DNA of 12,968 nt from Gemmatimonadota bacterium (GTDB lineage Bacteria; Gemmatimonadota; Gemmatimonadetes; Gemmatimonadales; GWC2-71-9): NCBI GenBank assembly GCA_039588295.1, contig JBDHAB010000073.1:1-12968 (forward strand), written 5' to 3'. The notes under the pieces were generated by a model that saw only the letters and a list, made by a program, of their open reading frames with translations, had not been told where the DNA came from and searched no databases. Below are positions 224-9,517 of the stretch, one piece after another. Both the position numbers and the translations under genes were made by a program. How positions within the stretch are numbered: the stretch's first letter is position 1; each line of letters opens with the position of its first letter.

Positions 224-348
224 TTAGTGTGCCTTCAGTGTGCCGTACTGATCGTCATTCAGTGTGACTCAGTGGGAAAACGTTGCATTGCTGCGTTCCG
301 ATAACGCCTTGTCCTTTCCCGATTTGTCACGATGAGTCACGATGAGTC
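224..348. repeat. Cluster of ~10-bp repeats (consensus TCA[GT/TC]GTG[A/C]C), putative integrase arm-type/RDF binding sites
   Basis: Forward copies: TTAGTGTGCC 224-233, TCAGTGTGCC 235-244, degenerate TGATCGTCAT 249-258, TCAGTGTGAC 259-268, TCAGTGGGAA 269-278. Inverted tandem pair GTCACGATGA at 326-335 and 336-345 (reverse complement TCATCGTGAC). They lie just upstream of a tRNA 3' fragment; function is inferred. Confidence 0.6.
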
Positions 349-363
349 CGCCTGAAGCGGCAT

Positions 364-480
364 AATCATAATCCGCGTGTCGGGGGTTGACTGCACACTT
401 GGCAGTGCGCGGTCTCGCCTCACCTCGGGTCGCCCGCGCCGCGGGCTCGCTTGGTTCGGCGTCGAGTCCCTCCTCCGCTA
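364..480 (+). tRNA. 3' half of tRNA-Met (anticodon CAT); non-functional fragment and probable att-site duplication, interrupted in the T-loop
   Basis: Removing 389-462 gives AATCATAATCCGCGTGTCGGGGGTTCGAGTCCCTCCTCCGCTA: anticodon loop ATCATAA (CAT at 367-369), stem strand TCCGC, variable loop GTGTC, T-arm GGGGG-TTCGAGT-CCCTC, acceptor strand CTCCGCT and discriminator A. No D-arm or 5' acceptor strand lies upstream. Confidence 0.85.
389..462. mobile_element. 74-bp palindromic (REP/MITE-like) insertion in the tRNA T-loop
   Basis: Sits exactly between GGGGGTT and CGAGTCCC. Internal hairpins: ACTGC/GCAGT (390-405), GCCCGC/GCGGGC (432-446) and CGCC/GGCG (416-419/458-461). Mobility is inferred. Confidence 0.55.
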
Positions 481-1240: not shown

Positions 1241-1270
1241 GCCCCGGGCGTCACGCGGCGTTCGGGGCTT
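1241..1270 (+). repeat. Conserved intergenic hairpin A, copy 1
   Basis: GCCCCGGGCGTC-ACGC-GGCGTTCGGGGC-TT; near-identical to the copies at 2254, 3027 and 4410. Confidence 0.9.
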
Positions 1271-1621
1271 CCCTTTGCACCGGGGTGAGGGATGCGCGAC
1301 GGTGCCGCGAGGGTGTCAACGCATCGTCACCGGCGACACAACAACTCTCGAGTCGTGAGAGGCATACAGGACCATTTCACTTCAATTGTGGCGCTTCTGC
1401 GACTCTTGCAATCGTGTTGACCGAGACCCACTCTAGCGGAACAAAGAACTTCTGTCGGTGGCCCTCGACGGCCCCACGTGCCGCTGTAACGCTTCCAGGA
1501 CGCCCCCCGACCGCGAGACCGCCAGGCCGTCGTCGTCTTTGGAGGAGTTGGCCGGTTCGCGCGGAGTCTCCGTGCGGGAGCGGCCGGACGCAATTTCCCT
1601 TCGAGTTAGGTGAGGTGACTA

Positions 1622-3026: not shown

Positions 3027-3058
3027 AGCCCCGAGCGTCAGGCGGCGTTCGGGGCTTT
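3027..3058 (+). repeat. Conserved intergenic hairpin A, copy 3
   Basis: AGCCCCGAGCGTC-AGGC-GGCGTTCGGGGCT-TT; the hairpin differs from copy 2 only in the loop. Confidence 0.9.
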
Positions 3059-4409: not shown

Positions 4410-4434
4410 AGCCCCGACCGTCACGCGGCGTTCG
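4410..4434 (+). repeat. Conserved intergenic hairpin A, copy 4 (3'-truncated)
   Basis: AGCCCCGACCGTCACGCGGCGTTCG, then divergent; the closing GGGCT is missing. Confidence 0.8.
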
Positions 4435-5092: not shown

Positions 5093-5491
5093 CTATTCGC
5101 TGTCGTTGATCGTCACGTAGAGCGCGGAGGCAGCCACCACGTATTCCTGAACCACCACCTGCCACTCGTCGGGGTCGTTGCTCTTCAACCCCTGCAACTT
5201 GCTGTTGAGCTGGTTGAGCATTCCCTTGAGCTGGTTGACCTCGCCCTGAACGCTGGCCGAGACCATGCCCTTCATGGTGCCGGGGGCGTCGCCGCGGCTC
5301 TTGGAGAACGCCGATCCCTTCATCATGACGTTCTTGGTCCCTACCTTCGTCTTCTTCTTCTGAGCCTCGCTCGCCGACTTGGCGATGTTCGGGTAGGGAA
5401 TGGGTACCGGAATGGGTATTGCGGGAGTCTTACACACGTCGGGGAAGGAGATAGAGAGACCGCTGCTGGCCTTCGACTTTGCTGGCATCAT
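5093..5491 (-). CDS. DUF4150/PAAR-like domain protein, C-terminally truncated and fused to a helical tail (132 aa)
   Basis: DUF4150 motifs FPDVCKTP, PVPIPYPN and SRGDAPGTMKGMVS; AAGGGA RBS upstream; then heptad-like NQLKGMLNQLNSKLQGL. Confidence 0.85.
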   Translation of the reverse strand: MMPAKSKASSGLSISFPDVCKTPAIPIPVPIPYPNIAKSASEAQKKKTKVGTKNVMMKGSAFSKSRGDAPGTMKGMVSASVQGEVNQLKGMLNQLNSKLQGLKSNDPDEWQVVVQEYVVAASALYVTINDSE

Positions 5492-5588
5492 GATCGCTAC
5501 GTCCCTTCTGGTTGTTCCGTGCTACGATCACCGGTCCAGGTGCTCGCGTCCATCGACTGCGCGGGCGCAGTTCGAACGCCGTACGTCC

Positions 5589-5604
5589 TGATAAGTTACC
5601 GTTT
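5589..5604 (+). promoter_or_regulatory. Putative extended -10 promoter for a leaderless methyltransferase mRNA
   Basis: TG-A-TAAGTT (5589-5597, TGnTAnnnT) ends 7 nt before ATG 5605; there is no Shine-Dalgarno sequence. Confidence 0.45.
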
Positions 5605-7176
5605 ATGACCGCGTACGACGAGGTCCCCTACGACTGCCAGCCGATCCCGTGCACGGCGCCCGAACAGCTTGCCACGGCGTCGCTGTTTCACGGCGGCCCC
5701 TGCCCGCCGATACGCGATGGTGCGCTTCTCGAGATCGGCTGCGGTGACGGAGCCAACCTCCTGGCCCTCGCCTTTCATCGCCCGGATTTCCGCTTCGTGG
5801 GGGTCGATGCGTCGACGGCACAGATTGCGGAGGCGCGCCGGTCGAGTTCCCACATCGGCGTCGCGAATATCGCGCTCCACGCCGCGGACATTGCGGAGAT
5901 CGGTCACGAGCTCGGGACCTTCGACTACATTGTGGCCCACGGGATGATGTCATGGGTGTCAGACGAGGTGCGCGATCAGATCTTCGCGCTCTGTCGCAAC
6001 CAGCTTGCCCCCGACGGGCTGCTCTACCTCAGCTACAACACCCATCCCGGATGGCTCGCCCGAGGGTTGGTGCGCGATACGGTCCTTCGGCGAACCGCCG
6101 CACACCAGTCGCTACGAGAGATGGCCGGTGAGGCCCGTCGTCGCGCCGACGTCCTCCGGCTCGGGCTCCAGGGCAACGACCACCCGTACGCCCGACTCCT
6201 AAGCGACGAGCTGAGACGCGTGGACCGAGTCAACGAGAGGTACCTGATCCACGAGTACCTCGCCGAACACAATCGCGCCTTCTGGTTTCGCGACTTCGCG
6301 TTGCTGGCCGCGCAGTTCGGGTTCCGCTATGTGGCCGAAGCGGCGTTCACGGAACGCGACTACCGTGTCCCGCCCGCCGTGCGCGAGGCAGCCGCCGAAC
6401 TGGAGCGCGAGCGGCTCGAGATCGAGACGCTGATCGACGTGCTGTGGTTCCGCCAGCATCGTGCCTCGCTCTTCTGCCACGCCGACCGCCGGTCGTCGCT
6501 CGGCCCAGACAGGCTTCCGCTCGAACGCATGACGGTCGCGTCGGGGTTGCGGGCCCCATCGGATGGCGTGCGGCTCGATCCGGATGTTGAGGAGTCGTTC
6601 ACCGGACACTTCGAGCCGGAGGTCGCCATCGAACTGAGCGATCCGCTGCCGAAGGCCGCGCTGGTAGCCGTGACACCGCACTGGCCGCGCGGCCTTCCCT
6701 GGGAACGGATGCTGCATGACGCCAAGGCGATCTTGGCAAATGCCGGCATTCAATCTCCAAGCGCCGACGATGAACGTGACCTCCGGGCCGAGTTCCACGC
6801 ATTGCACGCGCTCGGCCAGGTCGAGTTCCGGCTCCGGGAACCGCCGTGGCGCGGCACGCCGAACGGGCTCCCAACGGCCACGCGGCTCACGCGATGGGAA
6901 GCCGAGCGGCGCGCCGTGATCACCGCCGCGACCCACCACCGGCTCGGGCTCACGCCGGCTGACCGCGTGATCATCTCACACCTGGACGGTGGGTATGAGC
7001 GGGCGGCGATCGTCTCTGCCGTCGTGGAACAGCTGCGGGCTGGTGACGTGCGCGAATGGCGGAAGGAAGGATTGATGTCGAGCGATGGGTCCGAATCCCT
7101 CACCGGCGAGCAGTGGGCCGAGCGGCAACTCGACCGTAGCGTCGCGCTCCTCGAGGCCTGGGGATTGTGCGAGTGA
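5605..7176 (+). CDS. Class I SAM-dependent methyltransferase with methyltransferase regulatory domain (Rickettsia PKMT-like architecture), 523 aa
   Basis: Start reassigned to ATG 5605 (MTAYDEVPY). Motif I LLEIGCGDGANL, then FVGVDAS, FDYIVAHGMMSWV, LAPDGLLYLSYNTHPGW and the regulatory-domain motif YLIHEYLAEHNRAFWFRDF. C-terminal winged-helix-like region (IISHLDGG). Confidence 0.9.
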   Translation: MTAYDEVPYDCQPIPCTAPEQLATASLFHGGPCPPIRDGALLEIGCGDGANLLALAFHRPDFRFVGVDASTAQIAEARRSSSHIGVANIALHAADIAEIGHELGTFDYIVAHGMMSWVSDEVRDQIFALCRNQLAPDGLLYLSYNTHPGWLARGLVRDTVLRRTAAHQSLREMAGEARRRADVLRLGLQGNDHPYARLLSDELRRVDRVNERYLIHEYLAEHNRAFWFRDFALLAAQFGFRYVAEAAFTERDYRVPPAVREAAAELERERLEIETLIDVLWFRQHRASLFCHADRRSSLGPDRLPLERMTVASGLRAPSDGVRLDPDVEESFTGHFEPEVAIELSDPLPKAALVAVTPHWPRGLPWERMLHDAKAILANAGIQSPSADDERDLRAEFHALHALGQVEFRLREPPWRGTPNGLPTATRLTRWEAERRAVITAATHHRLGLTPADRVIISHLDGGYERAAIVSAVVEQLRAGDVREWRKEGLMSSDGSESLTGEQWAERQLDRSVALLEAWGLCE

Positions 7177-8884: not shown

Positions 8885-9517
8885 CTATTCGCCTTCCTCT
8901 TCTTGAACGGTGGGGACCGCGGAAGGCTGGGCAGAGCTGTCAAGTCGCTGGCGCAGCAGCCATACCAGCACAGCCCCACTCATCGCCCCGTACACGGCCC
9001 CGACCGCGGCCCAACCCGGGAACCCGCCCGCGGCGCCCACGGGGACCGCGCCTGAGAGAAACCCGCCCACAACCCATCCCACGCCGCTGGCCAGCACCCA
9101 CCAGCCCGCCCGGGCGAGCTGCCGCCGCAGCAGCAGCCATTGCAGCACACCGAGCACGGTCCCGAATAGGACCGTTCCCACGACCCAGCCCACATCCGCG
9201 TCGATCACGCCCACGGCGAAGACCATGACACCGAGGGCGGCAACGGCCACGATGCTGGCCGGCACCCACCAGCCCGCCCGGGTGACCTGCTGACGCAGCA
9301 CCAGCCATTGCAGCACCCCGACCCCGATCCCGCCTACGTTCACCCCCATGTACCCGGCCACGACTATGTCCCAGGACGAGCCCACGGCCACGCCTACGGG
9401 TCCGCCCAGGCCCAACCCCACTGCGCCGGCCAGTACCCACAAGAGCCAGAAGCCCCAGCCGGGAGCCGAGGGATTATCCGAAGGATCGTCGGTGCTGCCG
9501 CTAGTCTGCTCAGCCAT
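8885..9517 (-). CDS. Multi-pass Gly/Trp-rich membrane protein with internal repeats (210 aa)
   Basis: AGAAGGGG RBS; about six hydrophobic segments; repeated motif GVLQWL[V/L]LRxQxxRAGWWV[P/L]AS. Confidence 0.85.
   Translation of the reverse strand: MAEQTSGSTDDPSDNPSAPGWGFWLLWVLAGAVGLGLGGPVGVAVGSSWDIVVAGYMGVNVGGIGVGVLQWLVLRQQVTRAGWWVPASIVAVAALGVMVFAVGVIDADVGWVVGTVLFGTVLGVLQWLLLRRQLARAGWWVLASGVGWVVGGFLSGAVPVGAAGGFPGWAAVGAVYGAMSGAVLVWLLRQRLDSSAQPSAVPTVQEEEGE

What the first reader, a model, noticed from the sequence alone, without database searches (positions are those of the whole stretch)
364..480. tRNA-Met 3' fragment split exactly in the T-loop (GGTT^CGA) by a 74-bp palindromic element
Seen: deleting 389-462 (or, equivalently, 388-461) restores a complete tRNA 3' half. 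The insert is highly self-complementary, encodes nothing, shows no target duplication beyond a 1-nt T ambiguity, and reads GAC...GTC across its ends. Inference: a miniature non-autonomous element that targets the near-universal TTCGA T-loop motif, or an intron-like insert. Placed in an att core it could also block excision and lock the neighbouring island in place. Standard tRNA finders would probably miss it.
Basis: partly seen in the sequence, partly recalled or inferred. Interest (0 to 1): 0.72.

Follow-up and report, generated by a model that had tools for sequence, protein, structure and literature searches.

The report
Twin-hairpin mini-element splitting tRNA T-loops
The 74 bases that split this leftover half of a methionine tRNA gene are one member of a family of tiny, gene-less twin-hairpin inserts found at the same T-loop spot in dozens of spare tRNA copies across one bacterial family; they are likely mobile DNA moved by a still unknown enzyme, and would turn clean excision of the neighbouring genomic island into a gene-killing event.

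Summary
Window 364-388 and 463-480 match the intact tRNA-Met on contig C66 exactly, and form the displaced 3' fragment at an island end.

The insert is two hairpins, not one palindrome, and is not a one-off. In this genome 15 of 26 T-loop-spanning tRNA fragments are split at the same site by 40-74-nt inserts of the same architecture. About 50 more occur in relatives and metagenomes (about 15 genera, at least 11 amino-acid types). The Met site alone carries four different inserts, or none. Stems covary, there is no target duplication, and T55 is often replaced, which argues against an intron.

Copies sit in displaced fragments or, in three cases, in full-length genes; two of these lie beside intact copies. 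One weak copy lies outside a tRNA. No mobilising gene was found.

The insert lies 17 nt from the likely crossover core, so it would not block recombination, but excision would leave a dead tRNA.

The scan noted similar inserts on other DNA before. Ten paper searches found no description. Verdict: new variant of non-autonomous palindromic mini-elements, enzyme unknown.

The parts
226..244 (+). Arm-type repeat of the island's right end, shared with the sequence just behind the intact tRNA-Met on contig C66
   Evidence: the arm recurs in G004, G008 and L101; its role as an integrase arm site is inferred
327..348 (+). Tandem 10-nt repeat next to the att core (likely integrase arm site)
   Evidence: conserved in front of the same fragment in G004 and G008
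364..388 (+). Displaced tRNA-Met fragment, positions 31-55; anticodon loop 365-371 is the likely crossover core
   Evidence: identity to the C66 tRNA begins at 364; anticodon-loop subsite as listed in PMC4383910
389..462 (.). 74-nt twin-hairpin insert between T55 and C56 (equally 388-461 between T54 and T55)
389..414 (.). Hairpin 1: the terminal GAC pairs with an internal GTC (one T-G wobble in the outer stem)
   Evidence: fold; family covariation
416..461 (.). Hairpin 2 with an expanded loop; homologous to hairpin 2 of an insert in a tRNA-Lys fragment of another genus (L183)
   Evidence: 38 of 48 positions identical, 0 of 1000 shuffles as good; a partial relative at the Met site in run X2
463..480 (+). 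tRNA-Met positions 56-73 (rest of T-loop, T-stem, acceptor strand)
   Evidence: exact match to C66
481..581 (+). Arm of an older island at the same tRNA, with a hairpin at 486-510
   Evidence: 78% identical over 462-581 to the DNA behind the intact tRNA-Met of G007

Best explanation
The insert is one of a family of 38-91-nt gene-less twin-hairpin DNA segments that sit at the T54-T55-C56 position of tRNA T-loops and are likely non-autonomous mobile elements, inserted by an unidentified enzyme acting in trans. SHOWN: the fixed site; the shared architecture (terminal arm paired to a subterminal arm, then a second hairpin ending one base before C56); covarying stems; several sequence subfamilies that cross tRNA types; empty and filled alleles; no target duplication; variable bases at both junctions; and survival almost only in spare copies. 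INFERRED: the enzyme most likely works on single-stranded DNA, recognising the element's hairpins and the folded T-arm, like HUH (IS200/IS605- or rolling-circle-type) transposases. I give about 0.45 for this enzyme class. INFERRED: hits in working single-copy tRNA genes are purged, so copies pile up in the displaced fragments at island ends and then also travel with island DNA. INFERRED: here the element entered after island A had displaced the tRNA 3' half donated by an older island B. Excision at the anticodon-loop core would rebuild a split, non-functional tRNA-Met, so split fragments would act as a ratchet that favours retention of tandem island arrays.
For: OWN GENOME: 15 complete split fragments (Met, Pro, Ile, Trp-type, 5 Ser, 5 Arg, Leu; one Arg degenerate) against 11 unsplit T-loop-spanning fragments. 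Insert-only profiles gave 13 of 13 hits at E<0.01 in T-arms, 12 of them training copies, in a genome with 26,301 GTTCR sites. MET SITE: subfamily A (L101, L104, L178), subfamily C (L002, L023, L038, L059, L103 and four variants in runs X1, X2, X3), the window's type, a 91-nt type (L105), and an empty allele with the same arm (L003). PARALOGOUS PAIR in one array of G259: flanks 63/70 and 59/60 identical, 42 nt replacing T55. WIDER FAMILY: 40 of 43 printed model matches from 30 fetched loci are split T-arms, in 17 other genomes (one duplicates a G001 locus). ARCHITECTURE: passes in 23 of 28 inserts against 0.53 expected from shuffled middles, and in 14 of the 19 found without using the internal motif (subset counted by me). 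COVARIATION on 41 model-aligned copies: 95.8% of cells paired, 11 of 13 pairs with two-sided changes, hairpin-2 outer pair CG:20 and UA:17 (alignment fitted to the model). No strand bias in wobbles (7 vs 4), which fits DNA-level hairpins. TARGETING: an element-only pattern gave 14 of 16 matches in T-loops in 10 pre-selected genomes (reversed control 5) and 6 of 6 in G000. One Pro fragment carries two inserts, the second at a GTT^CA in its anticodon arm (L182). Full-length split Phe and Leu genes lie 13 kb and 5.3 kb from intact copies. PRECEDENT for att damage that makes excision destroy the RNA gene: PMC5148205 (passages), PMC4383910 (passages).
Against: No autonomous partner was found. G000 has one Y1 ORF with an altered HUH motif, a 65-codon Y2 remnant, two IS110 genes, one group II RT and only long GIY-YIG ORFs. 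Y1 and small GIY-YIG loci of five insert-bearing genomes carry no insert motif and no tRNA. Genes recurring near 29 inserts are cargo. No gene-bearing long version was seen. Subfamilies are biased by isotype (A in Arg, B in Ser, C in Met), which copying between like fragments would also explain. One weak copy lies outside a tRNA (G004:C125, E 2e-5); of the 3 truly non-training matches of the insert-only model, 2 were in T-loops. The window's own insert fails the strict architecture test because of a T-G wobble. Variable junction bases are not typical of precise HUH insertion (own knowledge). The C66-C73 link is inferred; the contigs do not overlap. The lock effect is untested, and a tRNA array on C14 may hold a spare Met gene.
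Confidence: 0.7

Rival explanations
1. Homing or gene conversion: a nuclease cuts intact T-loops, the split allele is immune, and it is copied into cut spare copies using the tRNA flanks as homology. Rare cross-isotype jumps happen by microhomology.
For: Isotype bias of subfamilies; junction bases that co-vary with subfamily; point damage at T54/T55 in unsplit fragments (Lys one T missing, Ala T54G); earlier scan notes tie similar hairpins to small GIY-YIG genes (unchecked).
Against: No small GIY-YIG gene in G000, G004, G479 or G259; those of G513 have other flanking palindromes and no tRNA nearby. The same subfamily occurs in T-arms with unrelated flanks, and once in an anticodon arm.
Confidence: 0.15
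2. Integration scar: the hairpin is part of the island's attachment end and is left at the junction by a T-loop crossover each time a block integrates.
Against: The same arm occurs with insert A, C, the window's type or none. Identity starts at the anticodon loop. Both T-stem strands co-vary across the insert. Full-length genes are split too. Subfamily A spans arrays headed by different integrase families.
Confidence: 0.09
3. An RNA-level intervening sequence or degenerate intron that is removed from tRNA transcripts, or that entered by reverse splicing and reverse transcription.
For: In the alternative register 388-461 the insert follows a T and ends in G, as group I introns do (own knowledge); three full-length genes carry inserts; minus-strand RNA fold z -3.5.
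Against: No Rfam match; far too short for a ribozyme core; T55 replaced in many copies; 0 of 28 tested copies rebuild a full gene; two of three full-length cases lie beside intact copies and the third was not checked; no strand bias in wobble pairs.
Confidence: 0.04
4. Assembly artefact or one-off random insertion.
For: The exact 74-mer is single-copy, and no laid run spans its junctions.
Against: Dozens of independent genomes and three runs have inserts at the identical position; hairpin 2 has a homologue in another genus.
Confidence: 0.02

Closest known systems
PATEs, the terminal-only IS605 derivatives of Haloquadratum (PMC3119063, passages read)
   Same: Tiny (down to 52 bp), no coding capacity, near-terminal palindromes, no terminal inverted repeats, no target duplication.
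   Different: PATE ends match IS605-type transposons in the same genomes; no such partner was found here. Here the hairpins start at the very first base, the target is the tRNA T-loop, and the junction bases vary.
SMR-A short mobile repeats of Haloquadratum (PMC3119063, passages read)
   Same: About 100 bp or less, no target duplication, mobiliser unknown, strongly targeted to hairpins that belong to other mobile elements, proposed to disable them.
   Different: SMR-A have terminal inverted repeats and target PATE/IS605 palindromes; this family has an asymmetric twin hairpin and targets tRNA T-arms.
Non-autonomous Helentrons (HINE/DINE-1; PMC4067079, passages read)
   Same: A 5' arm with a subterminal inverted partner, a small 3' stem-loop, insertion in a TT dinucleotide, ragged termini.
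   Different: Eukaryotic, with 11-15-bp arms and a known Rep/helicase partner; here 4-6-bp arms, bacterial, tRNA-specific, no partner. An analogy of architecture only.
Damaged att fragments of tRNA/tmRNA islands (Islander, PMC4383910; CP4So, PMC5148205; passages read)
   Same: A displaced 3' fragment differs from the gene, so excision yields a defective RNA.
   Different: Known damage is a 1-3-nt deletion; here it is a 38-91-nt structured insert in the T-loop that crosses isotypes and integrase families.
Bacterial MITEs and REP elements (review PMC3184786, passages read)
   Same: Short, non-coding, stem-loop-forming repeats moved in trans.
   Different: No conserved terminal inverted repeats, no target duplication, no intergenic scatter.

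Membership tests
MITE | Terminal inverted repeats | tested here: not met
   The 5' arm pairs with an internal arm; the right end varies
MITE | Target-site duplication | tested here: not met
   None; T55 is often lost or replaced
MITE | Ends shared with an autonomous transposon | tested here: not met
   No match at the transposase loci examined
PATE / IS200-IS605 derivative | Near-terminal palindromes, no coding capacity | tested here: met
PATE / IS200-IS605 derivative | No target duplication, fixed short target motif | tested here: met
   GT(T)^CR at all T-loop sites and at one anticodon-arm site
PATE / IS200-IS605 derivative | Ends homologous to an IS605-type element with TnpA | tested here: not met
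   One Y1 locus in G000 and 14 in five relatives lack the motifs; other genomes not examined
PATE / IS200-IS605 derivative | Precise single-strand excision and insertion by TnpA | not testable with these tools
   Needs biochemistry; junction variation argues for imprecision or later decay
IS91 / rolling-circle element | Insertion next to an intact GTTC or CTTG tetranucleotide (recalled) | tested here: not met
   The T-loop GTTC is split internally
Integron cassette (attC) at a secondary site | Crossover at G/TT with host TT kept on the right, and inverted core sites (recalled) | tested here: not met
   Right junctions lack T54-T55; one weak copy lies in an attC-like stretch that folds no better than shuffles
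Serine-recombinase or IS110 insertion | Dinucleotide core repeated at both junctions (recalled) | tested here: not met
   No constant 2-nt repeat in 41 junction pairs
Group I/II intron or tRNA intron | Ribozyme core or known RNA family | tested here: not met
   No Rfam match; length 38-91 nt
Group I/II intron or tRNA intron | Precise removal from RNA | tested here: inconclusive
   The one RNA run laid did not cover the insert
tRNA-targeted island attR, anticodon-loop class (the host structure) | 3' tRNA fragment starting at the anticodon loop, arm repeats, tyrosine integrase beside the intact gene | tested here: met
   contig link inferred

The most novel reading that the evidence does not exclude
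An undescribed transposition system reads the universal tRNA T-arm as a single-stranded DNA hairpin and drops 40-90-nt twin-hairpin elements into it, whatever the isotype. By poisoning the displaced half of att sites it makes island excision lethal, a ratchet that builds the long tandem island arrays of these bacteria. Its enzyme would be a natural insertion tool for any tRNA gene.
Probability: 0.35. Interest if true: 0.82.

Novelty: new variant of a known kind. Interest (0 to 1): 0.62.

Why it matters
It shows a recurrent, site-specific invader of the most conserved tRNA loop, among the smallest mobile units in bacteria, whose enzyme is still to be found. In practice, split fragments hide island ends from tools that look for contiguous tRNA fragments, so island arrays in these genomes are likely mis-mapped. 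If the ratchet holds, it offers a testable reason why tandem islands accumulate at tRNA genes instead of being lost.

Tried and rejected
SEARCHES THAT FOUND NOTHING USEFUL
- Exact or degenerate patterns in viral contigs: three scans gave 0 matches and one gave 8 matches with no tRNA context.
- A two-gap Met-site pattern over 401 genomes of the order hit only G004; by design it could not match the window's own insert.
- A loose pattern over 201 phylum genomes matched 41 genomes. Of 30 fetched loci only 4 had a full T-stem (G004, G008, G001, G123); the rest were chance.
- A subfamily-C pattern in genome contigs gave 24 matches: 18 chance hits, most in coding DNA, and 6 real, all in Gemmatimonadota-labelled records before a tRNA-Met tail. 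Three of the 6 repeat loci already counted and were left out.
- The Met-site metagenome scan gave 6 loci: 4 with inserts and 2 unrelated truncated genes.
- The insert-only model found subfamily A in 4 of 70 genomes of the family and 0 of 79 outside it. Other hairpin types elsewhere are not excluded.

MOBILISER CANDIDATES WITH NO LINK
- Y1, Y2, IS110, reverse transcriptase, GIY-YIG and neighbouring ORFs.
- A recalled link between large serine recombinases and tRNA loops was not borne out: PMC10083194 has no 'tRNA' in its main text (supplements not seen).

Uncovered parts of the insert prove nothing.

DROPPED OR REDONE
- One search used a mis-indexed structure and is superseded.
- The C34 Arg copy was dropped because its right boundary was mis-called.
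- G200's locus is identical to a G001 locus over 1759 nt and is counted once.
- ended early; one search's partial output served only as a lead.

PAPERS: ten searches found no description of T-loop hairpin inserts in att fragments. Williams 2002 and 2003 on tRNA/tmRNA integration sites were not held and were not seen.

Full report
OBSERVATION. The window is contig C73 of genome G000. Bases 364-388 and 463-480 match the intact tRNA-Met(CAT) on contig C66 exactly, and 74 nt lie between T55 and C56 with a one-base ambiguity. ARAGORN and Rfam see nothing in the window. The insert folds into two adjacent hairpins, 389-414 and 416-461, moderately better than shuffles (z -1.77 as DNA). The exact 74-mer is single-copy in G000 and has no significant match in 8 other genomes of the genus.

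CONTEXT. The intact gene on C66 is followed by a tyrosine integrase and by an arm repeat that recurs at window 226-244. Identity to the tRNA starts at position 31, so the fragment is the displaced right end of an anticodon-loop-class island. The subsite classes are as tabulated in PMC4383910 (passages). The C66-C73 link is inferred, because the contigs do not overlap. The DNA after the fragment resembles what follows the intact tRNA-Met in G007 (78% over 462-581), which points to an older island behind it. The integrase has HDLC where the G008 homologue has HDLR; by established knowledge of the HxxR motif it is probably inactive. Records holding close relatives of these inserts are labelled Gemmatimonadota.

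A FAMILY IN THE OWN GENOME. I compared all tRNA genes with the genome (33 partial matches at 35 bits or more) and added a T-arm scan and profile searches. Together these gave 15 complete split fragments and 11 unsplit T-loop-spanning fragments, plus about five truncated ones. The inserts are 40-74 nt and fall into subfamilies A, B, C and the window's type. Profiles of the inserts alone gave 13 hits at E<0.01, all in T-arms; 12 were training copies. The genome has 26,301 GTTCR sites.

THE MET SITE. The same fragment is empty in G008 (L003) and carries a 38-nt subfamily-C insert twice in G004. Further C copies are L038, L059 and L103; A copies are L101, L104 and L178; L105 is a 91-nt type. Contigs of runs X1, X2 (one study) and X3 (a second study) show four more C variants at the same joint. 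X2 also holds a partial relative of the window's second hairpin followed by a Met tail. No run spanned the window's own junctions, and the RNA run did not cover the insert.

WIDER DISTRIBUTION. A model of subfamily A with its T-arm matched 142 of 150 genomes of the family, mostly as ordinary 56-nt tRNA halves; 256 weaker matches were not listed. From 30 fetched loci I printed 43 matches: 40 are split T-arms, one is an unsplit control, one a tail duplication and one degenerate. They come from 17 genomes; one duplicates a G001 locus. With the own genus and G123 this makes about 15 genera and at least 11 amino-acid types. An insert-only model found 14 matches in 5 of 150 phylum genomes, all in this family. 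Thirteen are in T-arms and one weak one is not; of the three true non-training matches, two were in T-loops. An element-only pattern gave 14 of 16 matches in T-loops in ten pre-selected genomes, with 5 matches for the reversed control.

INFORMATIVE CASES. G259 has a filled and an empty copy of the same Arg fragment in one array, with 42 nt replacing T55. One Pro fragment has two inserts, one in the T-loop and one at GTT^CA in the anticodon arm. Three full-length genes are split. A Phe gene lies 13 kb from an intact Phe gene and a Leu gene 5.3 kb from an intact twin; the third is a degenerate class II gene whose counterpart was not checked. The window's second hairpin matches that of an insert in a Lys fragment of another genus at 38 of 48 positions (0 of 1000 shuffles).

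ARCHITECTURE. In 23 of 28 inserts the first four bases pair with an internal arm that is followed at once by a second stem closing one or two bases before C56; 0.53 were expected from shuffled middles. Nine of the 28 were found with motifs that include this feature; among the other 19, 14 pass. The window's insert misses the strict test by one T-G wobble. Pair counts support both stems: 95.8% paired on 11 MAFFT-aligned copies and on 41 model-aligned copies, with 11 of 13 pairs changing on both sides (the second alignment leans to the model, and five of the pairs are the T-stem). Wobbles show no strand bias. Junctions vary: position 55 is T in 18 and G in 10 of 28 copies, and the right junction has one or two variable bases. 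There is no target duplication. Removing the insert rebuilt a full tRNA in 0 of 28 at default settings.

MECHANISM. The site, the architecture, the recurrence across isotypes and the empty/filled alleles are shown. That the element is moved in trans is inferred. Absence of duplication, hairpin ends and a hairpin target fit single-strand HUH chemistry best. The layout recalls PATEs and SMR-A (PMC3119063, passages) and non-autonomous Helentrons (PMC4067079, passages). No partner was found, however, so the enzyme class stays at about 0.45. Survival only in spare copies follows from tRNA essentiality (inference). The insert lies 17 nt right of the likely core, so it should not hinder the integrase. 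Excision would join the 5' half of the gene to a split 3' half, as a damaged attR inactivates ssrA on CP4So excision (PMC5148205, passages). By my reading of identity features (recalled rules, not tested), C66 holds the only core elongator Met gene, with a possible spare in the C14 array. The rivals are homing or gene conversion (0.15), an integration scar (0.09), an RNA-level intron (0.04) and an artefact (0.02).

NOVELTY. It fails the defining tests for MITEs, IS91, integron cassettes, serine/IS110 insertions and introns, and meets two of the three testable PATE features. Ten paper searches found no description; subscription papers and the two Williams papers were not seen. The scan has noted similar T-loop inserts on other DNA; those notes are unchecked leads, not support. 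Verdict: a new variant of non-autonomous palindromic mini-elements, interest 0.62.

Noticed in passing
window 1242-1268, 2256-2282, 3029-3055, 4412-4434: Four copies of a 28-nt terminator-like hairpin; about 50 copies genome-wide, mostly on contigs with island arrays. On C59 one follows a truncated copy of the window's island arm.
   Followed up: partly
window 1284-1408 (to 1522): A non-coding module repeated at 73-85% identity on at least 12 other contigs, often in front of cargo genes; no Rfam match.
   Followed up: no
G000:C1 64234-64395 (minus strand) and C1 252511-252665: Gene-less cassettes of about 100 nt behind tRNA-Gln and inside a tRNA-Cys fragment. They repeat the tRNA tail from the T-loop, with an inverted acceptor-strand copy and a hairpin before the displaced tail.
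   Followed up: partly
G000:C2 29986, C5 110031: Unsplit att fragments with point damage at T54/T55 (Lys lacks one T; Ala has T54G).
   Followed up: no
L115-L117, L123-L126 (subfamily A): The loop of hairpin 1 is a variable but always C-rich stretch of about 22 nt, G-rich on the other strand; possibly a quadruplex.
   Followed up: no
L242:912-956 (G004:C125): The only subfamily-A-like copy outside a tRNA, in an intergenic, loosely attC-like stretch.
   Followed up: partly
L102, L106: Full-length tRNA-Met 5' part that stops at the T-loop and continues into unrelated AT-rich DNA, in another organism.
   Followed up: no
G000:C14 47647-63751: Array of 19 tRNA genes with divergent sequences, likely on a phage or plasmid-type element.
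   Followed up: no
L027:1552-2712 (G000:C66): Island integrase with Cys in place of the Arg of the HxxR motif; the G008 homologue keeps Arg.
   Followed up: partly
window 5093-5491 (minus) and 5512-7176: A PAAR-like ORF beside a 554-aa methyltransferase with a regulatory domain.
   Followed up: no
window 9079-9361: 115-nt internal repeat (78%) in a membrane-protein ORF.
   Followed up: no
L147 and L235: 1759 nt are 100% identical between genomes of two genera (G200, G001): recent transfer or binning overlap.
   Followed up: partly
L211, L215, L217 (G513): Small GIY-YIG ORFs flanked by palindromic repeats unrelated to the T-loop inserts.
   Followed up: partly
G000:C111, C145: A group II intron reverse transcriptase, and an IS110 gene near an attC-like sequence.
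   Followed up: no
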